Source of the DNA: Chrysomallon squamiferum
Taxonomy: Eukaryota > Animalia > Mollusca
NCBI GenBank assembly: GCA_012295275.1
Contig: CM022676.1
Span: forward strand, 4,464,001-4,528,000
DNA: 64,000 nucleotides
Reading direction: 5' to 3'
Shown: positions 1 to 64,000 of the stretch, one piece after another
How positions within the stretch are numbered: the stretch's first letter is position 1
Layout of the letters: each line of letters begins with the position of its first letter
Notes under the pieces: model-generated
The model's database searches: none
The model's input: the letters and a program-made list of their open reading frames with translations, nothing else
Told to the model about the DNA's origin: nothing
Position numbers and translations under genes: made by a program

Positions 1-1270
1 GCTCTAGTGTCTGGTAACCTGTATCATTTTTGGTATACTTTTGAGTTCTTCATCTTTTTACACTCAATCTGCATTGAGTGGGGTTTAATTCTGTATGATG
101 ATTTTATGACGATTTCTGTAAAAGTTTGAGGAGTGCGTACGAACTGATTTTTCATATTAACTGCTTGTGTAGTATTTAAAACGTACGAATACATGGGATT
201 AACGTGAAGAACTGTTCAACCCGTGGAATTCCATTGTTGATACTTCGTTTCCAGGACAACGGATGACACGGCAAAGCAATATAGCCAGATGACGAGAGGA
301 ATATTGCCAGGAAGGTTCTGACGTCATGACATTTCTATTATTTCTCAGTAACCACCGCTTTGAAACACAATGGCTTTTGCTAACAAAAAAATCTCTCGAT
401 GATTTAAATAACAAAATTTCAGCTACAGTGTACTGTAAGCAGCGGTATCAAAAAAATAAAAAATAAAAAATAAATCATAATCTGCAGAAATGGATCATAT
501 ATGATATACTGCATAGCTACTTGTTGACCAGAAAAATAAATAAATAAATAAAAATAATAAAATCCACATACAATATTTTCACTGTTCATGTGTTTCTCTG
601 TTGTAATGAATCGACTTGTGACTGACATTCTGATGTAGAATTACTGTTGTACGCCTTCAGTATTTTTTGCAAACTTCATTTATAACAAAGAAAAGGAACT
701 GAAGAACTGGGTTAGAGAGAAATTCAAATTAACTGGTGTAATCACTAATATCCGTACACTTTTACATCTCTGAATACAGATGTATTACTAAAATATTGCT
801 TTGAATTAATTAGGAAACTTATCTCTGTTGTCCTGTTTAATTTGTTTTTTTTCTTTCTTTTACCCTCTTTTCAAACTTCTAGAACTGTACTAGCAGATGT
901 AAATAGTTGATTTTACTTGTTATCCAGACTTAAAAGGAACTCGGGAAGAAGAATCATTATAGAAAAAAGAAGGAAAAATGAAGATTGCATATTGCTGCTT
1001 GTGTAACAATGACTGAAATGATAGAAAATTTGTTAAAGAATTTGTGAGCAAGCAGTTGGAACGGGAAATATGATAAGGGAAGTAATGGAGGGAACTAGTG
1101 TGTACTATTTTTCTGTTCATTATATTATCTTTTTTTATATTAGCAGGTTTCTTTCTGTGTTCGTGATCACAACGATTTTTTCGTTGACATAATAAATACA
1201 TTTTCCAGTTCTCTGCTATATTTTATTCTTTCCCTTCGTACACAATAAGTAAACTAATGTTTCTCTTTGT
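1..1270. repeat. Inverted copy of about 19810-21110 (3' flank of gene C)
   Basis: Bases 1-50 are the near reverse complement of 21061-21110; mirror ORFs 199-414/20697-20912 and 920-1201/19878-20123. Confidence 0.92.
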
Positions 1271-2953
1271 TTTTCAAATGTGTTCATCTCTTTGTGTGTC
1301 TTTGTTTATAACAAGCTTTCTCCATCGATTTTTTATTTCAACTGTTCTGATTATACACACCTCTCTTTTCTTTTCTATTATTCTCAATTTATCTGTTTAT
1401 CTGTCTGATTGTTCTTTCTTTCTTTACTCACACACAATAGAAAGAGTATGCTACTCAATGACTTGACAGAAAGAGTGTCATGTGCTTTAGGTTATATCGT
1501 TAGTTCGTCTTTTTTTCATGCGTCACTGGTTTTAAACAGAGTGGTAGGCTCAGAACATACAACAATAACACTGACCACGTGATGTCATGACGTATATATA
1601 TATACATATATTTAAATATTACATATACCAAAATAAAACTGACGAATGTTTAAATATATATATATAGATAGATATATATGCGTCATAACGTGACTTGGTC
1701 AGTTTTATTTTGGGATGTTGTAACTCTACACTCTATTTATGTGTGTGTGAGTGTGTGTGTTTGTGAGTTATGTATATATGTATATATATATGTATATGTA
1801 AACACAAACATATACCCACATACATACATATATACATATAGAGATATATACATACATCTAGACATACTGTATATACATATATGTATAAATGCAAATATGG
1901 AAATACATACACCTGTATGGTAAAATATCTTCACACATACTTATAAACGTACATAAATACACTCGGACATGAATAAAAATAAAAGCAATAAAAAAAAGAA
2001 AAATAAATAACAGAACGTATGTCTAACGAAATGACAGAACAACGGTTAAACGAATTTTGAGCAAGGAGTTAGAACAGGAAAACAGTCAAGGGAGATAATT
2101 ATACATAGGTAGATAGATAGATACGTATATACATACATAGGTATATTATACATACACACACATACATAAAAGCATACACTGATACCCGAACATATACCAC
2201 CTACTATGTGTGTGTGTGTGTGTGTATATATATGCCTATATGTATCTCTATTTGTTATATTTAAACATTTCATATATATATCTCTCTATATATGTGTGTG
2301 TGTCTGTGCGCGTGCATGTTTGTTTATATATGTATATATATATATATATGTATGTATGAATGTATGTGTGGAAACACATATACAAACACACATACATATA
2401 TACATATACAGATATTTACATACATATATACTTAACTACATATCTATATAAATGTGTATAAATGCAGATATGGAAATATATACACCTGTTTGGTAAAATA
2501 TCTTCACACATACTTATAAACGTACATAAATACACTCGGACATCAGTACTAAAAAAAACAACTAATAAACAATTAAAAAAACCAACTAATAAATAAATAA
2601 ATATATAAAAAAAAGTAAAATAGAATAAAATAAAAGGAAAACGAAGAAGAAGAAAAAACATTCTAAGCAGAATTAACTATTGAAAATACAACTCTGCATG
2701 TTATATCTCAGGTTGCATTTTGTATTTTTCTGATTCAGTCGAGTGGATTTAGTTTATTAATAAATAAGCAGACCCAGTGACACTTGTGTTCATATTGTGT
2801 ATGAAACAGGAAATAAAACCTTTACCAGAATAAAGTACAACAAGAAGGCGTCGAAAACAGTTTTAACATTAACAGCAGTAAAAACGAGAAAGCAGTGAAG
2901 AAAAGAAAGTAACTATATTTTTATTAACGGCAGTTAAAACTAAAACACTGGAA

Positions 2954-3422
2954 ATGAGTGCTAAGTTATTCTGTGTGTTCGTGTTACTGGGATCTCTAAG
3001 TTACGTACAAGGTATGTATTTTATATTCCTGCCAAAAGGCAGACGTGTCATAAACTATAGTATAGCATAAATTATGGAATATTCTGATACAATTAAATAC
3101 AGAACACAGAACAAAATTATATTAAATTATATTAATTAATAGATTTATTTGTAGATTTATTAATTACATTTACCATATTATAATTAGGCTCTTGCTGTTG
3201 TTTGTATGTTCCCGAGTGATACATATTTACAAACTGTGAAATCTAAATTGAGTCGAAATTATGTTTCGTTGACTAAGGTAAAAAACTATATGCATGATTG
3301 TGTGATTTGAAGTTTTGAAATATCTGTATTAAAGCATTAGGCAATAACATAACATTCCATGACATAAGATAACGTTAGGATATGAGAGTCGATAATGTAA
3401 CATAATGTAATAAAATTTAAAG

Positions 3423-3461
<39 letters not shown>

Positions 3462-4154
3462 AATAAATTAATTAATTAATAAATAAATAAATAAATTAAT
3501 AAAAATAACACAAAATGTGAATGTAATTATAAAATATGTATTTAATTTACTTTTGAATTTTGTTTGATTATTATTATTTTAAACAGAAGTTTGGTTTTTC
3601 GTAATAACAACATCAGACAGGAATGTAATTGTAGGATCACCTTTTACTTTTACCTGTCGAGGATATCCTGTTTCTATAATTTCCTGGTTTGAGAATAACA
3701 CAAAATACAGGATGGATATAGGAAGACATGGTCAATGTCTTTATCATAGTAATCCTCCAAAAGAATACACTTTTAAGTGTTCAGATGACCTAAACACTCT
3801 CACAATAAAATCAGTGAAACTCAGTCAACATGGAACAGTGTGGAGATGTGGTGACTTTCTACCACGCAGCAATGAAATAAAACTGGAAGTGAGACGTAAA
3901 ATTAACTTATTTATTATTAATGTTATTACTGTACCTATTAGATGTTAAAAAAAAAGAAGGAAATAAAACTGGAAGTAAGAGGTAAAATTAAATTGTTTAT
4001 TTTAAATGTTATTACTGTACCTATTTTACGTTAAATTTTTATGTTTCGGAATTTTTTCCACACACTCACAAGTTTTATAGAAACGAAAATTTCATTGCAT
4101 ATTTCAGATAATCAGACTGCGCCAGCGGCTGTACAACAACATACAGAGATGTGA
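2954..4154 (+). CDS. IgSF gene A: signal peptide + single V-like Ig domain + short tail, no TM (predicted secreted, 137 aa)
   Basis: Exons 2954-3011 (MSAKLFCVFVLLGSLSYVQ, donor GTATGT), 3587-3895 (EVWFF...FTFTC...SWFENN...GTVWRC...EIKLEVR) and 4108-4154 (HNQTAPAAVQQHTEM*). All junctions are phase 1 and in frame; exons are paralogous to genes B and C. Confidence 0.75.
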
Positions 4155-9834: not shown

Positions 9835-18800
<8,966 letters not shown>

Positions 18801-21648
18801 AACAAGTTCTATTTATTAATCATACACTTCTTAAAACTGTTTCAATGAAACCTACAGAATATTAATTTGTTCAAAGTTTTGTATACTAAAATACAAAGGC
18901 TTCACTTTCTACAGTGACACCACATTTGAACTGTGTAAATAGCTACCTGTGAGAAAGGTTATAAATATTTTAATGAGTGGCTTATCGCGAATTTTTGATC
19001 ATTCATTACCATTGTCTGAGATGTGACTCTAACTATGTGAAAACTTCGGGAGATTTATCATGTAAAATTAAAATATTTACCCACGTATATATTAACAAAA
19101 AGAAACATTTGATCAATCTCAGTAACACTGGTCTTTTTCGCACATGTTTCATCTTTTAATTTTTTATATTTGCTCTGATATAAGATCCTTGACGTTATGA
19201 AAGTCTTTACTTTCTTGTATAACGATAACATGAGAAATGGCAGAATAAGACTATATTTTCAGGGTTTTTTTTATACTAACAAGCGTTTCCTTTCCGCGGC
19301 TTCGTAAACTTCATCTGTCAAAGCTGTTCACTGTTTTGGTGGTACTTGTGAGTTTTTCATATTTTTATTCGCTATTTTCATTGAGTAAAGCATAATTCTA
19401 TCTGATAATTTTGCCACAGTTGGACGAGGGTTCGGGCGTACGAACCGATTTTGTTTGTTTTTTGTTGTTTTTTTATGTTGAAATAAACGGCTTGGATTGG
19501 ATTTAAAATGCTTTTTGTTTTTTTAAACAATGTTTCTGTGTGTGCATGTTTCCTGTTAAATGTCTTTCTCTGTACTGTTATATTTTATTAGGAATTGTTG
19601 CTTATGTAACAAAGATCGAAATGATAGAAAATGGGTTAAAGGAATTGTGAGCAAGCAGTTATAATGGGAATTAGGACAAGGGACATAATGAAGGGAACTG
19701 ATGTAACTACTAAACTAGTGTGTACTATTTTTCTGCTCATTATGTTATGTTTCTTTTTCATATAGCAGGTTTCTTTCTGTGTTCGTGATCACAAAGCGTT
19801 TTTGAAAGACAAACACAAACATTAGTTTACTTATTGTGCACGAAGGGAAAGAATAAAATATAGCAGAGAACTGGAAAATGAATTTATTATGTCAACGAAA
19901 AAATCGTTCTGATCACGAACACAGAAAGAAACCTGCTAATATAAAGAAAGATAACATAATGAGCAGAGAAATAGTATACACTAGTTCCCTCCATTACGTT
20001 CCTTATCCTATTTCCCGTTCTAACTGCTTGCTCACAAATTCTTTAACCCATTTTCTATCATTTCAATCATTGTTACACAAGCAACAATATGCAATCTTCT
20101 TTTTTCCTTCTTTTTTTTTGTAATGATTCCTCTTCCTGAGTTCATTTTAAGTCTGGATAACAAGTAAAATCAACGATTTACATCTGTTAGTACAGTTCTA
20201 GAAGTTTGAAAAGAGGGTAAAAGAAAGAAAAAAACAATTAAACTCTTCAGGACAACAGAGATAAGTTTCCTAATTTATTCAAAGCAATATTTTAGTAATA
20301 CGTCTGTATTCAGAGATGTAAAAGTGTACGGATATTAGTGATTAAATCAGTTAATTTGAATTTTTCTCTATCCTAGTTCTTCCGTTCCTTTTCTTTGTTA
20401 TAAATGAAGTGTGCAAAAAATACTAAAGGTGTACAACAGTAATTCTGCATCTGAATGTCAGTCACAAGTCGATTCATTACAACAGAGAAACACATGAACA
20501 GTGAAAATATTGTATGGGGATTTTATTATCTTTATTTATTTATTTATTTTTCTGGTCAACAAGTAGTATGCAGTATATCATATATCATCCATTTATGAAG
20601 ATTATGATTTATTTTTTATTTTTTATTTTTTTTTTATTTATTTATTTATTTATTTATTTTGGATACCTCTGTTTACAGTAAACTGTAGCTGAAATTTTGT
20701 TATTTAAATCATCGAGATATTTTTTTGTTGGCAAAAGCCATTGTGTTTCAAAGCGGTTGTTGCTGGTAAATAATAGAAATGTCATGCGTCAGAACCTTCC
20801 TGGCAGTATTCTTTTTGTCATCTGGCTTTATTGCTTTGCCGTGTCATCCGTTGTCCTGGAAACGAAGTATCAACAAATGGAATTCCAAGGGTTGAAAAGT
20901 TTTTCACGTTAATTCCATGTATTCTTCCGTTTTAAATACTACCCAAGCCGCTAATATGAAAAACCAGTTCGTACGTACACCTCAAACTTTTACACAATCA
21001 TCACAAAATCATCATACAGAATTAAACCCCACTCAATGTAGACTGAGTGTAAAAAGATGAAGAACTCAAAAGTATCACCAAAAATGATACGGGTTACCAG
21101 ACACTAGCGCGGGTACTCTTGTTAGTACAGAAAACTGTAAATATAGTGTTATTCTGTCATTGTCAGGCATAAATTTCATTTTTCATGTCACCGATATACA
21201 GGAAGAAAAAGAAATTAAATAAAATAAAAATAGAAACTTTGCGAATTTGAACGAAGTTTCATTTCTTGGATATCATCGCGGGAAGCCATTACTGAAATTG
21301 ATAAAACTTTTTTTTTTTAATTTATGTTTTTATGTGTATCTATTTAATACTTAATTTTACATGATAGATATCAAGAGATTTTAACATAGTTACATTCACA
21401 ATTCACACGATGTTAATGAATGGTAGAAATTCGCGATTGGCAACTCATTATTAAAATGTTCATAACTTTTCTCACAGGTAGCTCTTTACACAATTCAAAT
21501 CTGGTGTCACTGCAGAAACTGAAGTCTCCCTATTTTAATAAAAATATTTAACAAATTAATATTCTTCAAGTTTTCGTGAAAGTGCCTTAAAAAGTGAATG
21601 ATTGACAAACAGTACTTGTTTCCTTCTTTATCATTCATGAACAGGATC

Positions 21649-22474
21649 TCATTTGTTTTCAAACTTGATGACGTCATATGGGACGTCATTTCGTCTTTCC
21701 TCTAGAGAAGAATATGGACTCCCTGTGTCTTGATGTTGTCCTGCTGCTGCAGTCTGATTATCTGAAACATGGAATGAAATTATCTTTTGGCTTATATAAT
21801 CATTGATAGCGCGTTCGTGTATGTATTGAGTGTATTAATATACATGTAAGAATCTTTGTAAGTAGGTAGGTACATAGACATGTCTGAGTGTATCCATATA
21901 TGTATATACGTGATTGTGTTTGTGTGTCTGTATATATGTTTGTATGTGTATGTATGTATGTATGTGTGTATGTATGTTTGTATGTATGTATGTACGTATG
22001 TCTTTATCTATGTATGTATATATGTATATATATGTATGAATGTATACATGTCAACTTACCAGAAATCTGACCAACATTATAGTACACAGGTTGATTGGAG
22101 CTCATTCTGAAATTTCAAAAGTAAATAAAATATATTAGATATTCATTGATGTAATAATTTGAATACAAAGAAAGAAATGCAAACACACATACATATCATA
22201 CACTCATACGAATATATATATATACATTTATAATTTTTCATACATCCATATACATAAAACATGAATATAAACACATCAAACATACACAGATATATACAAC
22301 AACACATGAATATATTTGAATACAGACATATAAAGATCAATTTTTTAGAGATAGAAACAAAAGTAGTACAAATATATAAATTAAAATACCTTTCTGGATT
22401 AGAAGCTGCCTTCTTCCTTCCTGTAATAATAATAATAATAAGAAGAAGAAGAATAATAATAATAATAATAAGTA

Positions 22475-22527
<53 letters not shown>

Positions 22528-24016
22528 CATCATCACCATCATGCATCATACCAATAAACCTAGTAGGAGTTGTAGTAGTAGTAGTAGTAGTAGCAGTAGT
22601 TGTTGAGGTGGTGGTGGTGTTGGTCGTGGTGGCAGTGATATAGTACTGGTTATTATTATGTATACAATATACCCCTCTCTTCAAATCATGCTACGTAGTT
22701 CCAGACCTCATTAATGGGAATATTACCGATCGTGAAATATTTTTAGTATGATGTCTGTATAAAATAAATCCATGATAAAACTTGTTCTGCTTGGACATCA
22801 TTTTTCTTTATCAGGTGTGTAAAACGCCCAGTTGCTCACGAAAACAGGTTTGGTTACTCTGTTCAGGGTAATTGTTTAAATTTAACTAGATTTATCTCCC
22901 TTGTACTAATACGTAAAATTGAGTAAAATACATAAAAAACAAACATAAAGATACAAAACATAAACAAACAACAGCATGAATGAATGAATAAATGGATGAA
23001 TAAATAAACGAAGCAACAAACAAACGAATGAATGAATAAATAAATAGTAGAAAGTAAAATAAAAACAAACAAATAAGTAAACAAAGAAGTAAAAAAGAAA
23101 GAAAGAAAGAAACTAAGAAACAAACAAACAAATAAATAAGTAAACACATAAATAAATAAATAAATAAATAAGTAAATAAATAAATAAATAAATAAATAAA
23201 CAAACAAACAAACAAACAAAGAAATACTTCTTTTGTTTCGGACGTAGAGAACAACGACAATGACAATGATAACAGACAGAACGAGGAAAGTTCCAAAACC
23301 GCTGCCAAATCCTTTTCCAAACTGACTGCTGTCTTCTGCAGGGCCTGAAAATTCATTAACACAAATAAAAATATGTCACTGAATTAATATATTGTTTATA
23401 TATCTTCAATAATTAGTTAATTAGAATATTTGATATTATCAAATATCTTCACAGATTAGTTAATTATTTATTTCCTGGTGCTAAATTATCTTCATTTAAA
23501 ACGTAACTTCATTGATATTAATTGTATTTTCTGTAAGAAACATGCATATACGCATATTACACAAACACATAATGCATAAGCACTGAAACAGAGTCGCAAC
23601 CAGACACTTACATATGTACATACAGACAAACATACACATATATTTTCATAAACATACACACATATGGACCTAGGTATGAAGAATCAAGATAACGTACAAA
23701 GAAGAAACGATTCCAAAGATTTTCTGACTGCTGTTTTCACTTTGTTTTCCGCCTCACAATAAAATCCTTCCCAGTCTGAACAAGATGTCACTATCCAACT
23801 GTACTCCAATGTCGTGGCGTTCTGAACTTGGTGCAGCAGTTGTCTCCCTTTCAGTATTTTAATGGCGGAATTCGGATTACTGTCCACGTTACATACAAAC
23901 GTTGCATTTAGTTTATTCTCCCTTGCCTTGTTAATTACATGTTCAGTGAACACTTTCGTCTTAATGGACGGTTGGTCTGGAGTGAAAAAAGTAGACTTTA
24001 ATATTTCTCCATCATT

Positions 24017-24088
<72 letters not shown>

Positions 24089-24555
24089 CTATCTGAATAG
24101 TTTTTGTATAACTATTTCATTATCTGTATTCAAAAGTAAACGAAAAATCAAATGAAGTAAAACTCACACATAACGTTAATAACAATTTTGCTATCTGATG
24201 TTTGGTTCGTATCAGGGTTAGAAGCAATGCAGGTGTAGACGCCATCTTGAAATTTCGTGATATTAGTCAGTGCCAGTAATTCGTTGTTACTGACAATCTG
24301 ATTGGTCAGTTCCCATCTGTAAACGCATTTGATAAAACAATCGGCTTTGCATGATAATGTGACGTCACTTCCTTCCTCTACAGTGATGTCAGATGAAGAA
24401 TTGACTCGAACTGAACTATCGGGACCGTCTGTAAAAAAAAATTAAATTGAAATAAAATAAAATAATAATAATAATTAATAAATAAATAAATACATCAATG
24501 GTATTGGTTTGTTTCTATTTTATCAACATGATCGTCATCATCATAATCATCAGTA

Positions 24556-24617
<62 letters not shown>

Positions 24618-25266
24618 GTAATTGCTATTCTTATTGTTATAGTTATTCTTATTGTTATAGTTATTCTTGTTATTGTTGTTGGTATTGTTGTTGTTGTTTG
24701 GCAGACTATAAGAAAACTGCATAATGTTTAAATGGTACAAGCTTACCCTATTTTTACTATAATTAGTTTCTTACTTACAATGTACAGTCAAATGAAGTGT
24801 TTTTTTAGCAGTTTGGTTCGTATCTGGATTTTCAGCCGTACACACATAGAGACCTGTCTGTGATCTATTAATATCAGCCAATGACAGAATGCTTGTGTTA
24901 CTTATGATGTTATCTGCGATCTTCCATTGATAATTACACGTGATGAAACACGTCGCCGAACAAGACACTGTGACGTCACTTCCTTCCACAGCAGTCAGAA
25001 CAGTCGAAGTATTCAGTTTGAGTGATGTTCCAGGACCATCTGACAAAAAAAAACAAAAAAAAAAAGACATTATCAACATCATCACCATCATTATCGGCAG
25101 CTTCATCATCATTTTATTCATATTTTCGTTTTATTCCTACTCATGGTAGAAATTATAGGTTACTCGTATTGTTAGTTATGGATGTTGTCGTCGAAGTGAT
25201 GGTGATAGTGTAGTGTCTGAGTTGTTGCTGTTGGTACTATAATTATTACTAATGTCACAACTATTT

Positions 25267-25311
<45 letters not shown>

Positions 25312-26724
25312 TATATATTTATTTATTTTCCTAATATTTTTGCTGATATATTTAGTTTATTGTTTTGTCATCATTAACAGTACATATTTCATAATAATAA
25401 ATAAAACTCATTTTCTCTCTCACATCCAGTTTTATTTCATTGCTTTATTTATCATCCATTAGGACCGGTAATAATATTAAGAATAAACAAGTTAATTTTA
25501 CCTCTCACTCCCAGTTATATTTCATAGTTTTTAATCATGTTACAGGTACAGTAATAATATTAATAATAAAAAAGTTAATTTTACCTCTCACTTCCAGTTT
25601 TATTTCATTGCTTCCTGAAGAAAAACCACCACATCTCCATACTGTTCCATGTTGACTGAGTTTCACTGATTTTATTGTCAGAGTGTGAATATCAGCTGAA
25701 CAGGTAAAAGTGTATTCTTCTGGATGTTTACTAAGAAAATGACATTGACCGTATCTTCCTGCTTCATTCATCATGTATTCTGTGTTATTCTCAAACCAGA
25801 AAATTACAGGAGCAGGAGCTCCTCGACAGGTAAAAGTAAAAGATGATCCAACAACTGCGTATTTGTCTGATGTTGTTAAACTGCGATACTGACCTTAAAT
25901 TTAAAATAATAAAAAAAAAAATTCAAATAATATTAAATGCATTTTATATAATAACATTCTTGATAAGTTTTATGTTATTTTTATTTATTTATTTATTTAT
26001 ATACTATTATTATTAGTATGATTATTATTAGTATTATACTTTACGTTTAATTACTTTATATTACATTAATACGATACGCCATATTATGGACTCTCATATC
26101 CTAATGTTATGTTATGTTATCTTATGTTATTGTCTCATGTTTTAATACAGATAAGTTTCAAAAATTCAAATCACGCTATTACGCATATATTTTATACATT
26201 AGTCAACGAAACATAACTTCGACTCAGTCAAGATTTCACAGTTCCTAAATGAAATGGACTCAGGCACAGAAAAATGGCTCCCTCTCAAAAGACAGACAGA
26301 CAGCCCATAATACGGACACGCCATTTGACAGACAAAACTCTTTATTGGGTCATATATCCTGTACACCCCTGACTGATTTGATGGTATGCTCCATTCTGTT
26401 CATACAAGCAAGAGGGAGAGCCTAATTATAATCTGGTAAATGTAATTAATAAATCTACAAATAAATCTGTGAATAAATCTAATTTTATATAAGTTTGTTC
26501 TATTTTCTGTATTTAGTTGTATCAGACTATTCCATAATTTATTACATGTAATATTCAAGGTAAACGGCAGGTCATTAGTAAATGCACTCAACCGTGTCTT
26601 CTGTTGTTTATGCTAGACTATTCTATATGAGAAGCCTGTCTTTTGGGAGGAATATAAAATACATACCTTGTACGTAAATTACACATCCCAGTAACACGAA
26701 CACACAGAATAACTTACAACTCAT
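21649..26724 (-). CDS. IgSF receptor gene C: leader, V-like Ig, two C2-like Ig, membrane-proximal Ig, TM, tail with Tyr motifs (491 aa, intact)
   Basis: Exons 26724-26667, 25893-25585, 25039-24779, 24428-24168, 23976-23698, 23344-23228, 22420-22390, 22106-22060, 21761-21649 sum to 1476 nt, open throughout, with GT-AG sites. CEACAM-like DGP/YGPD domain starts. Tail reads ...PVYYNV...SPYSSLEERRNDVPYDVIKFENK*. Confidence 0.88.
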
Positions 26725-28197: not shown

Positions 28198-28246
28198 CTT
28201 GTACGTACAATACACATCCCAGTAACACGAATAACTTACAACTCAT
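28198..28246 (-). CDS. Distal alternative signal-peptide exon of gene C
   Basis: MSCKLFVLLGCVLYVQ(G) with a phase-1 GTATGT donor; inverted copy of 8298-8346. Confidence 0.6.
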
Positions 28247-37109: not shown

Positions 37110-37314
37110 ACCAAACTCTGTTGTTAACTGATCTGGCTACATTCGTTTAGTTCACTGATATTATTAACGCCTTTAAATCCTGTCCGTGTTTTGAGTCTGG
37201 TCAGACCTCGGTATTCAGCGAAGGGACGTGACTCTGCAGATATCATCTCAAATCACGATTCCTACAGAATAGCAGTATATTTCGTAAAGTTTGTCTTGAT
37301 TTTCTGTTTACAAA

Positions 37315-39017
37315 ATGTTGCGTTTTAAAATTGGACCGCGACACAGAAAAATGGCATCGTTAGAAGGCTTAGGCAGCGGGCCGGAAGGAAGGATTAAACG
37401 ATTACGTAAAATGGTGACAGGTTTGATTCGATACGAAAGAATCGAAACAGCTCAAAGTCACGGCGATGAAGCAAGGGGTTACGCAGAACGTGTAAGTGTC
37501 GTTAATAGGCAGACGTCAAAACTTATTATTAGACATCAGAAATATGTTTTTGTATGGAACAGGAACCATGCCATCACAGACTAGTCTTTTACAGTAACCA
37601 GCAGTAATTCGAATATCGAGATACGCACCTTAAGTTCGTAACTCAGGTTTTCCCATTTGTTATTTCTACATTTGTTTCTTTTACTTTCTCAGAATCATTA
37701 AAATGCCCATCTGCATGCACAATGTAACATGACAGGTCAGAAAGCACTTACAATAGGTTTTAAAAAACCCAGTCCTAGTCACTGTGCGCTTAAAAGATAA
37801 GTGGGTATATTAATAAATAATTGGTAATAATGTGTGTATTGATTTAATTTGATTTAATTTTAATATTTACTTTTTTTGCATTTTTTTCCTTCAGTGGTTG
37901 ATAGACGTGATTATGGTTAAATAATTGTAATTAAATTGTAAATTAATAGTTAATTACAAAAATTTTATGTATTTATTTTTTATTATTATTATTTTATATT
38001 ATTTTTTTATTTATTTTTTGTTGTTGTTGTTCTTTTTGTTTTGTTTTGCTGTATTTGTTTTGTACTCAGTGGTTTATAGACATGTTTGTGATAAAGAGTG
38101 AATAATAAGTTACTTACAGATGAACTAAAATGTAAACTGTTTGTCTCATTATTATTCAATTTATTGTTATTTATTTATGTATTTATCCTTGCAGCTGATT
38201 CAGTTGGCAATTAAAAATGGAGATAAGCACAAAGAAACAATGGAAATGGCAGACTTCTGGCTGTTGGTATGTCTTACTATTTTTTCTTTCAATTCTTTCA
38301 TCAATTATATGTTACTTTAATTTTTATTACAATTTAATGTGACTGTTATGCATTCCAAAAAAATATTAAAATTACTCAGTGTTATAATTATTATCAAATA
38401 CTGAATCAAATAATATTTTTCTCTCTTGCAGGAAAAAGATTTAGTTCACAAACTTTTCAAAGTGCTTGTTCCCCGCTATCAAAATTACACAACATCTTAC
38501 ACAAAAATGTGGAACCTGCCAATAAAATACCCAGGATTTGGACATCAGAGTAGTGTTTTGGAATTAAAAGGTAAATAAATTTATTTATTTTCAAAAACCT
38601 GATCTTTATATGTACCAGTTACAGACTTATGCCTACGTGTACGATATTTTTAAAGAAAAGAACAGCATTATTACAATTATGTTTAAATTCAGCCTGATTA
38701 TTAGACACTAATGCATATCTTAGAGCATTTTCAGTTTATTTATTTAACTAATGATAGTTGTGTGAAACAGATGTGGCAGTATGTGAGATACATGGTAGGA
38801 TACGGTTTGTATGTTGAGGAATTAAAATCTCTTGAAGTCTGGGTTGTTGTAATCTGCACAAACAGCACTAAACATGTTGAGTTCAAAATAATAATAATGA
38901 TAATGATGAAAATAATATAAGGAGAAAAAGTTGAGATTACAATAAAAACATGAGATTACATGGAATTTGTTATTATATAAAGAAAATGATTTTGTTCTGC
39001 AACAAAATACGAGGAGT

Positions 39018-42606: not shown

Positions 42607-42817
42607 TATATTTTTGCCAGACGTATGGATTTATATTTTCTGTGATGAATTTGAATCTTTGGCATTAAGATGTCATTCCAGCCTGTGGCAACGAAGATTA
42701 TAATTCTTTCAAAAGATGATAATGATTTTAACACTATGTCATACTTGATTACTTTATTTTATTGGACCGTCAAAGACAAGTAAAAAAAAAATTAAAAATA
42801 AAAATAAAAGAATAAAA

Positions 42818-43676
42818 ATGCCTAAAAATCATTTTGAAGTCCTGGGTGTTAAACCGACTGCAACGGAAGAGGAAATTAAAAAAGCTTACAGAACGCTAGC
42901 TAAAAAATGGCATCCGGATAAAAACAGAGCCAGTGGTGCGGAAGATAAATTCAAAGAAATTTCCGCAGCTTACGATTTCCTTCAGAGCAAGGATAGGAGA
43001 GAAATACTGGCCAGAGATCTCTCTAAACCAAAAGACGAAAAATTACACAAAACCGAAACAAGGGAAAAACACTCGTACAAATTCTACGACACCAAAACCG
43101 GCGAAAAGAAAGGCAAATCCCATTGGAGTACATTTTTTGGTAAAGACAAGAAGAAAACAAAAGCCGAAGAAACGCCAGGTTTTTCATTTGCTCGTTCCAA
43201 ACCCACCGAAGATGAGACATTTCCGGAAGCAACAACATCAAAATCGAGTTCAGGATCCAGCAACAAAAGGACGCCGAACAAAAAATACTCGCACGCTTTC
43301 CGTTCTTTTGTCGATCAGTTGGAAAATGACTTCGACAGCTTTTTCGGTAAAAGGGACTCGTTTTCGGTGTTCTTTGATGGACCGGATCCTTTTGCTACAT
43401 TTTTCGGACCAGACGCGTTCCCCACAGCAACGTCCCCGAAAACGAAACCCAAAAGTAAAACGACTCCAAGAAATGTTGCCCCTGAAACAGGACAGGTGGA
43501 CGGACTTGATGAGGAGTATTTGTTCTCACCTAGAAGTCAACAGAAACATTCTAAGCATACTTTTAACATCTCTGACGATGAAGGTGTACCTGGTAGGTAG
43601 CATATTGGAGTGTTGTGGATTTGGGGCTTAATTAAATTATTACTATTAGTAGTAGTAGTAACAGTAATAGCAGTAT

Positions 43677-49558: not shown

Positions 49559-64000
<14,442 letters not shown>

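What the first reader, a model, noticed from the sequence alone, without database searches (positions are those of the whole stretch)
21649..22106. Gene C tail reads as both a double ITIM and an ITAM
Seen: SPYSSL-EERRND-VPYDVI. Each tyrosine fits the ITIM consensus (S/I/V/L-x-Y-x-x-I/L/V), and together they give YxxL-x8-YxxI, the ITAM spacing. An upstream YYNV fits the Grb2 SH2 YxN motif. Inference: it may recruit SHP-type phosphatases or Syk/Shark-type kinases, or switch between them.
Basis: partly seen in the sequence, partly recalled or inferred. Interest (0 to 1): 0.7.

Follow-up and report, generated by a model that had tools for sequence, protein, structure and literature searches.

The report
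Snail Ig receptor with conserved ITAM
This stretch ends a snail gene for a cell-surface receptor with four antibody-like domains, and its two evenly spaced tyrosines are kept in related genes while the extra 'inhibitory' letters are not, so it likely switches cells on through a Syk-type kinase, as a known oyster receptor does, rather than being a special on/off hybrid.

Summary
The motifs are real. They lie in the last two exons of a nine-exon, 491-aa gene (leader, four Ig domains, one membrane helix, 67-aa tail) from a gastropod close to Gigantopelta aegis. The Y-x-x-L/I pair with an 8-9 residue spacer is present in 4 of 4 G. aegis loci with a tail and in 2 of 4 duplicated tail exons of neighbouring gene B, though the spacer is unconserved. 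A double ITIM is present in 0 of these 6 pairs. YxN is kept in 3 of 4 G. aegis loci. The G. aegis relatives carry a third, distal tyrosine motif (an ITIM in 3 of 4) that gene C lacks. So gene C is best read as an ITAM-like activating receptor, and the double ITIM as a chance overlap of loose consensuses. Ig receptors with an ITAM are known in oyster and Hydractinia. The less ordinary part is the family: gene B multiplies the motif by exon duplication and gene A looks secreted. No binding or function was tested.

The parts
26667..26724 (-). Gene C exon 1, leader peptide (a second, orphan leader copy starts at 28246)
25585..25893 (-). Gene C exon 2, N-terminal Ig domain, V-like fold, four cysteines
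   Evidence: Pfam Ig; model pLDDT 90, best matches antibody and TCR V domains; cysteines
24779..25039 (-). Gene C exon 3, Ig domain 2
24168..24428 (-). Gene C exon 4, Ig domain 3
   Evidence: RNA contig skips the intron before it
23698..23976 (-). Gene C exon 5, Ig domain 4
   Evidence: weak Pfam Ig_3, E 0.004; Ig look-alikes
23228..23344 (-). Gene C exon 6, membrane helix with no charged residue
22390..22420 (-). Gene C exon 7, 31-nt basic juxtamembrane exon
   Evidence: 35-letter gap in an RNA contig
22060..22106 (-). Gene C exon 8, holds YYNV (YxN) at 22084-22073
21649..21761 (-). Gene C last exon: tyrosine pair (codons 21714-21712 and 21678-21676), stop at 21651-21649
15314..15399 (+). Gene B tail module 1, both tyrosines lost (H and D)
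15991..16089 (+). Gene B tail module 2, first tyrosine deleted
17115..17219 (+). Gene B tail module 3, intact Y-x-x-L, 8 residues, Y-x-x-L
18196..18300 (+). Gene B tail module 4, intact Y-x-x-L, 8 residues, Y-x-x-L
18708..18752 (+). Gene B last exon, tyrosine pair removed by a deletion that shifts the frame
9835..14289 (+). Gene B outer part (leader, three Ig exons, membrane exon); the Ig exon near 11604-11863 is frameshifted as assembled
2954..4152 (+). Gene A: leader, one Ig exon and a decayed last exon, no membrane exon found; predicted secreted

Best explanation
Gene C encodes a single-pass receptor with four Ig domains whose tail carries one conserved pair of tyrosine motifs, and that pair likely works as an ITAM that recruits a Syk- or Shark-type kinase to switch the cell on. 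Shown: the gene anatomy, the motif pair, its conservation in relatives, and the lack of conservation of the ITIM-defining residue. Inferred steps: the variable outer V-like domain binds a ligand; clustering lets a Src-family kinase phosphorylate both tyrosines; the tandem SH2 domains of Syk or Shark dock on them; the upstream YxN adds Grb2. Gene C lacks the distal ITIM of its G. aegis relatives, so it is predicted to lean more to activation than they do. A role in haemocyte or symbiont recognition is a guess from analogy.
For: Pair present in 4 of 4 G. aegis loci with a tail (spacers 8, 8, 8, 9) while 0-1 of 8 spacer residues and only 23-32% of other tail residues match gene C; chance that three anchors stay identical at that rate is 0.013-0.032 per comparison. 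Pair intact in 2 of 4 duplicated exons of gene B. Acidic residue three before the second tyrosine in 6 of 7 pairs. YxN at the aligned position in 3 of 4 G. aegis loci; YxN plus ITAM is also the layout of marsupial and Xenopus activating CEACAMs (PMC2832619; PMC5112662). The oyster receptor CgIgR has an ITAM with the same 8-residue spacer and was reported to bind CgSyk (PMC6994640). G. aegis annotation lists two SYK-like genes and one Shark. No charged residue in the membrane helix, so no sign of a separate signalling chain.
Against: No binding or phosphorylation test. The acidic residue three before the first tyrosine, part of the strict ITAM consensus, is missing in 7 of 7 pairs; eutherian CEACAM ITAM-like motifs also lack it. 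Three of the 4 G. aegis tails are near-identical, so they count as about two independent types. All 4 have T two before the first tyrosine, close to the ITSM pattern though ending in L. Within the window the module diverges as fast as its flanks (75-79% against 66-75%) and anchor survival alone is not significant (0.07-0.09); 2 of 4 B modules lost the pair. Of 5 distant molluscan hits with a predicted membrane helix and a known species (P0021, P0030, P0034, P0036, P0038), only 1 has such a pair. Syk and Shark were not checked in this species, as no genome was held.
Confidence: 0.6

Rival explanations
1. The tail is mainly inhibitory: its tyrosines recruit SHP2/Corkscrew or SHIP, one at a time, across two receptor molecules, or by pairing the YYNV tyrosine with the first motif.
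For: Both halves fit ITIM in gene C. S or T stands two before the first tyrosine in 5 of 7 pairs. The YYNV tyrosines are 23-24 residues before the first motif, near the 25 of PD-1. SHP2 can bridge two PD-1 molecules (PMC7078208). One modelling preprint argues that all tandem SH2 proteins are tuned to similar spacings (PMC12132298). Oyster two-ITIM Ig receptors exist (CgNCAM1, PMC11841013). G. aegis has a PTPN11/csw gene.
Against: Double ITIM in 0 of 6 homologous pairs, single fit at 2 of 12 tyrosines. The spacer length, which an ITIM does not need, is what is kept. Shortening the linker cut SHP2 activation. The relatives' clear ITIM is the distal one that gene C lacks.
Confidence: 0.13
2. The pair is a switch: Syk when both tyrosines are phosphorylated, a phosphatase when one is.
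For: Mammalian ITAMs give inhibitory ITAMi signals through SHP-1 at low avidity and with single phosphorylation (PMC5557797). Gene C fits both consensuses.
Against: Nothing here tests it. ITAMi needs no ITIM flank, and the flank is not conserved in this family, so the double ITIM is not evidence for a special switch.
Confidence: 0.12
3. The tyrosine motifs are sorting signals (Y-x-x-hydrophobic) for uptake or recycling of an adhesion or scavenging receptor, not kinase docking sites.
For: Both halves fit the endocytic pattern YxxL/M/V/I/F named in PMC5112662. Database labels for the relatives are 'CEACAM-like' adhesion molecules.
Against: A sorting signal does not need a partner at fixed distance, an acidic residue upstream, a YxN motif, or repeated copies of the whole pair.
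Confidence: 0.11
4. The motifs are a chance pattern, or gene C is a decaying copy.
For: Neighbours A and B carry decayed or frameshifted exons; the family evolves fast.
Against: Gene C is open across nine exons; the pair is shared with G. aegis at about 25-30% tail identity; shuffle odds 6e-4; an RNA-library contig matches the motif exactly.
Confidence: 0.04

Closest known systems
Gigantopelta aegis 'CEACAM1/5-like' proteins (XP_041372832.1, XP_041346676.1, XP_041379697-700.1, XP_041373955/6.1, XP_041346725.1, XP_041372833.1)
   Same: Same family: about 50% identity in the outer domains, 37% over the whole length for XP_041346676.1, alignable membrane helix and tail with YxN and the tyrosine pair. 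Three of the six loci list the same longest contig length as G. aegis MRPL17, which neighbours the cluster in this window.
   Different: Their tails run on to a third tyrosine motif 13-14 residues further (ITIM in 3 of 4); gene C stops before it. None has a double ITIM. The labels are automatic; the tails are not discussed in the passages of PMC7895826 that I read.
Oyster CgIgR (PMC6994640, passages read)
   Same: Mollusc receptor with Ig domains, one membrane helix and an ITAM with an 8-residue spacer; reported to bind CgSyk and drive ERK and phagocytosis.
   Different: Five Ig domains; acidic residue before the first tyrosine present. Homology to gene C was not tested: no hit or 65 was identified as CgIgR, and many hits were not named.
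Hydractinia Alr family (PMC9546547, passages read)
   Same: Tandem invertebrate Ig-receptor family with V-set outer domain, divergent tails, ITAMs in some members and ITIMs in others, pseudogenes among them.
   Different: Alr proteins have an Fn3-like spacer and a genetically mapped role in allorecognition; nothing of that kind is shown here.
Vertebrate paired CEACAMs (CEACAM1/CEACAM3; PMC2832619, PMC5112662, PMC4079198, passages read)
   Same: Works like them in outline: clustered, fast-evolving N domain, activating tail with YxN plus an ITAM-like pair lacking the first acidic residue, possible secreted members.
   Different: The CEACAM N domain uses an Arg-Asp salt bridge in place of the disulfide, whereas this N domain has four cysteines; vertebrate ITAMs are split by a phase-0 intron, whereas this pair lies in one exon. 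Likely convergent.

Membership tests
ITAM | Y-x-x-L/I, 6-8 (or 6-9) residues, Y-x-x-L/I in a cytoplasmic tail | tested here: met
   Spacer 8, after the only membrane helix; definitions
ITAM | D/E three residues before the first tyrosine (strict consensus) | tested here: not met
   G in gene C; 0 of 7 pairs acidic there, 6 of 7 acidic before the second tyrosine. Hence 'ITAM-like'.
ITAM | Pair and spacing conserved in homologues | tested here: met
   4 of 4 G. aegis loci with a tail; 2 of 4 gene B modules
ITAM | Dual phosphorylation and binding of Syk/Shark tandem SH2 | not testable with these tools
   Needs peptides and proteins; G. aegis has the kinases
Vertebrate ITAM gene layout | Motif split by a phase-0 intron | tested here: not met
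   Both tyrosines lie in exon 21761-21649; feature from PMC5112662
Double ITIM | [S/I/V/L]-x-Y-x-x-[I/L/V] at both tyrosines of gene C | tested here: met
   the second fails the narrower L/V version
Double ITIM | Both flanks conserved in homologues | tested here: not met
   0 of 6 pairs; 2 of 12 single tyrosines
Double ITIM | Spacing that lets one SHP2 engage both sites (about 40 A linker) | tested here: inconclusive
   6 residues between the hexamers, about 21 A if fully extended (my arithmetic); argues spacing matters less
ITSM | T-x-Y-x-x-V/I | tested here: not met
   Absent in gene C and gene B; G. aegis has T-x-Y-x-x-L at the first tyrosine in 4 of 4
Grb2 SH2 site | Y-x-N, conserved | tested here: met
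   Gene C and 3 of 4 G. aegis loci; F replaces the Y in the fourth; exon absent in gene B; chance alone 0.36
CEACAM | N-terminal IgV-like domain | tested here: met
   Best fold matches are antibody and TCR V domains, TM-score about 0.6-0.7
CEACAM | N domain stabilised by Arg-Asp salt bridge instead of the cysteine pair | tested here: not met
   Four cysteines, nearly invariant in 16 aligned domains; feature from PMC4079198
CEACAM | Jawed-vertebrate distribution and orthology | tested here: inconclusive
   No tree built. PMC4079198 found no homologues in insects, amphioxus or ascidians; PDB hits of P0067 are MAG, FCRL5 and CD22 ahead of CEA, all weak

The most novel reading that the evidence does not exclude
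This is one locus of a large, fast-evolving immune-receptor family of vent snails that sets signal strength by gene surgery on one tail exon: the ancestral tail has YxN, an ITAM and a distal ITIM; gene C dropped the ITIM; gene B turned the last exon into a repeatable internal exon through a splice donor one codon before the old stop and stacked ITAM copies; gene A is a secreted decoy. Such graded activating, mixed and soluble receptors would read the snail's bacterial symbionts or pathogens, converging on vertebrate paired CEACAMs.
Probability: 0.2. Interest if true: 0.65.

Novelty: new member of a known kind. Interest (0 to 1): 0.35.

Why it matters
What it adds is a signalling hypothesis for a family known only by an automatic 'CEACAM-like' label. 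An orthogroup with that label has 130 genes in G. aegis and 101 in another vent snail, and 4 genes so labelled are high in the symbiont-bearing gland; whether gene C belongs to that orthogroup is not shown. If the tails work as predicted, the family offers a natural series (one ITAM, stacked ITAMs, ITAM plus ITIM, none) for testing how invertebrates tune tyrosine-motif signalling.

Tried and rejected
No genome was held, so family size and Syk/SHP2 genes in this species are unchecked. A word-based protein search with the Ig1 exon found nothing among 26 candidates; the profile search found 37 hits. The last exon has no match in the PDB (2 hits, E 1.7 and 2.1). Other reading frames were rejected: they hit stops in all 5 modules. 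Positive selection is not established: Ig1 dN/dS is 0.9-1.4 against 0.35-0.47 for Ig3, Ig4 and the membrane exon, but not significantly above 1; the tail module gives 2.4 and 6.6 for C against B3 and B4 on only 1-3 synonymous changes. Depth was not used as copy number or expression; the runs hold only 0.03-0.23 of the words and RNA libraries can hold DNA. Two G. aegis models (P0010, P0012) end before the membrane helix and were left out of the tail counts; of the four isoforms at one locus, X2 has a different tail without the pair and X3 lacks the stretch before the membrane helix. A relic of the distal motif just past the gene C stop is suggestive only. No complex was predicted: no Syk or SHP2 sequence was held and phosphotyrosine cannot be modelled there. 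My first guess of a cephalopod was dropped. Literature searches that found no account of this family's tails: 0 papers; 1 unrelated; 2; 10; the library lacks most subscription papers, including the oyster IgIT papers, seen only as reference entries. Look-ups of earlier scan notes by place, by sequence and by one word set were empty.

Full report
Observation. Nine exons between 26724 and 21649, each bounded by AG and GT, give one open frame of 491 residues: leader, four Ig domains, one uncharged membrane helix and a 67-residue tail. The fourth Ig domain is weak in Pfam (E 0.004) but has Ig look-alikes. The N-terminal domain folds with pLDDT 90 and matches antibody and T-cell receptor V domains best. 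The tail is spread over three exons; YYNV is in the second and both paired tyrosines are in the last.

Frame and expression. Only the motif frame stays open through the exon in gene C and in the 4 homologous exons of gene B. Four runs were laid on the gene from its first Ig exon to its end. A contig of RNA-library run X1 matches 21670-21736 with 0 differences. A contig of run X4, from a near copy, joins the membrane exon to the YYNV exon with 35 letters between, as predicted. An X1 contig skips 366 bases with 16 other letters between at the Ig2-Ig3 junction, which fits the 350-base intron. These are contigs, mostly of near copies, and RNA libraries can hold DNA; the join into the last exon is not shown.

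Chance. In 200,000 shuffles of the tail, the ITAM spacing arose at 6.1e-4, the double reading at 4.5e-5 and YxN at 0.36; of shuffles with an ITAM, 7% also fit ITIM twice, and 9% under a generic composition (background frequencies recalled). So the pair is unlikely by chance in this tail, YxN alone means little, and an ITAM that also reads as two ITIMs is not rare.

Source. A neighbouring MRPL17 exon is 86% identical to Gigantopelta aegis and 75% to abalone, so the window is from a gastropod close to that vent snail; the species was not determined.

Paralogues in the window. Genes A and B (plus strand) are relatives; the front halves of B and C are inverted duplicates at 85%. Gene B has a 160-residue tail in frame across seven exons, with four copies of the exon that ends gene C. 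Modules 3 and 4 keep Y-x-x-L, 8 residues, Y-x-x-L; module 1 lost both tyrosines and module 2 the first. Neither intact module is a double ITIM: 1 of their 4 tyrosines fits. Modules 2-4 are 99-105 bases, phase 1 at both ends; the donor lies one codon before a stop that aligns with the gene C stop, and the following intron is 66-75% like the gene C 3' untranslated region. I infer that a duplicated last exon became an internal, repeatable exon. An X1 contig holds at least two such modules 297 bases apart, in frame, so tandem modules occur in a related transcript or gene. Gene B has a frameshifted Ig exon as assembled; the unrelated gene D also has a 1-base shift, so assembly error is possible. 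Gene A joins leader, one Ig exon and a decayed last exon in frame with no membrane exon.

Homologues elsewhere. A profile of the three Ig1 exons found 37 proteins; the closest are six G. aegis loci labelled CEACAM-like or uncharacterised. Four have a membrane helix and tail. All 4 carry the pair (spacers 8, 8, 8, 9), although 0-1 of 8 spacer residues and 14 of 60 to 20 of 63 other tail residues match gene C. Three of the four are near-identical to each other. The residue two before the first tyrosine is T in all 4; before the second it is A, S, A, P. With gene B, a double ITIM is in 0 of 6 pairs and a single fit at 2 of 12 tyrosines. An acidic residue stands three before the second tyrosine in 6 of 7 pairs and before the first in 0 of 7. 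YxN aligns in 3 of 4. All 4 have a third tyrosine motif at the end, an ITIM in 3 of 4, 26 residues from the first paired tyrosine; gene C stops short of it. Distant molluscan hits have unrelated tyrosine-rich tails, with an ITAM-spaced pair in 1 of 5.

Mechanism. What selection has kept is two Y-x-x-L/I at a fixed short distance, which is what Syk-family tandem SH2 domains read (established for ZAP70 and SYK; PMC12132298). SHP2 is reported to need a linker near 40 A for two-site activation and to lose activity as it shortens (PMC10231330; PMC7078208); the 6 residues between the hexamers here give about half that. Against this, PMC12132298 argues that tandem SH2 proteins are tuned alike, and SHP2 can bridge two receptor molecules. 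G. aegis has Syk-like, Shark and PTPN11 genes, so either route has its parts in a close relative. I put the ITAM-like activating reading at 0.6, inhibitory at 0.13, a switch at 0.12, sorting signal at 0.11 and chance at 0.04. Ligand, cell type and outcome are untested.

Comparison. It works like oyster CgIgR (ITAM with the same 8-residue spacer, binds CgSyk), like ITAM-bearing Hydractinia Alr proteins, and in outline like activating vertebrate CEACAMs, which also pair YxN with an ITAM or lack the first acidic residue. It is not filed as a CEACAM: the N domain has four cysteines, not the salt bridge, and the motif is not split by an intron. It meets the spacing definition of an ITAM but not the strict consensus. 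ITAMs that also inhibit are known in mammals, as are tails mixing ITAM-like and ITIM motifs (FCRL).

Papers seen. Passages by term search: PMC9546547, PMC6994640, PMC11841013, PMC11999971, PMC7078208, PMC10231330, PMC12132298, PMC11871041, PMC4079198, PMC5112662, PMC2832619, PMC2413239, PMC5557797. PMC7895826: passages, section 8 whole, and term searches in its supplements. Supplements of the other papers, such as the Alr and CEACAM tail alignments, were not opened and could hold examples of overlapping ITAM/ITIM. The names GAREM and THEMIS are recalled, not from a call.

Verdict. Observation confirmed; interpretation half right. A new member of a known kind, with a modest point of interest in how the family varies its tail. 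Interest 0.35.

Noticed in passing
window 33596-30204, minus strand: Gene next to the cluster with CABIT-like first exons (Pfam CABIT weak, E 0.067), a proline-rich part, many tyrosine motifs and a C-terminal SAM domain; resembles GAREM/THEMIS adaptors (recalled), which link to Grb2 and SHP phosphatases. Its first exon has a 1-base frameshift as assembled.
   Followed up: partly
window 15314-18300, plus strand: In gene B modules 2-4 the splice donor sits one codon before an in-frame stop, so each could act as an internal exon or as an alternative end, giving tails with different numbers of motifs.
   Followed up: partly
window 2954-4152, plus strand: Gene A reads as a secreted one-Ig protein, a possible decoy or a truncated copy.
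   Followed up: partly
window 8298 (plus) and 28246 (minus): Orphan copies of the leader exon about 1.5 kb upstream of genes B and C.
   Followed up: no
window 21300-25900, run X3: 789 contigs laid at 90% or more (121 at 99+, 257 at 95-99, 411 at 90-95), and loose ends after the second tyrosine that look like the gene B type of donor; suggests many related copies.
   Followed up: no
window 25585-25893: The N-terminal Ig domain is 64-66% identical among A, B and C against 87-92% for inner exons of B and C, with an extra cysteine pair shared by many molluscan Ig domains.
   Followed up: partly
window 1-1278 and 19801-21110; 19594-20088: A 1.3-kb inverted duplicate at 91% and an imperfect palindrome between the converging ends of genes B and C.
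   Followed up: no
window 37300-37584, 42749-43600, 55665-63332: Unrelated neighbours: MRPL17 exon, a DnaJ-domain exon, and long low-complexity Q/S/P-rich exons of an unidentified gene.
   Followed up: no
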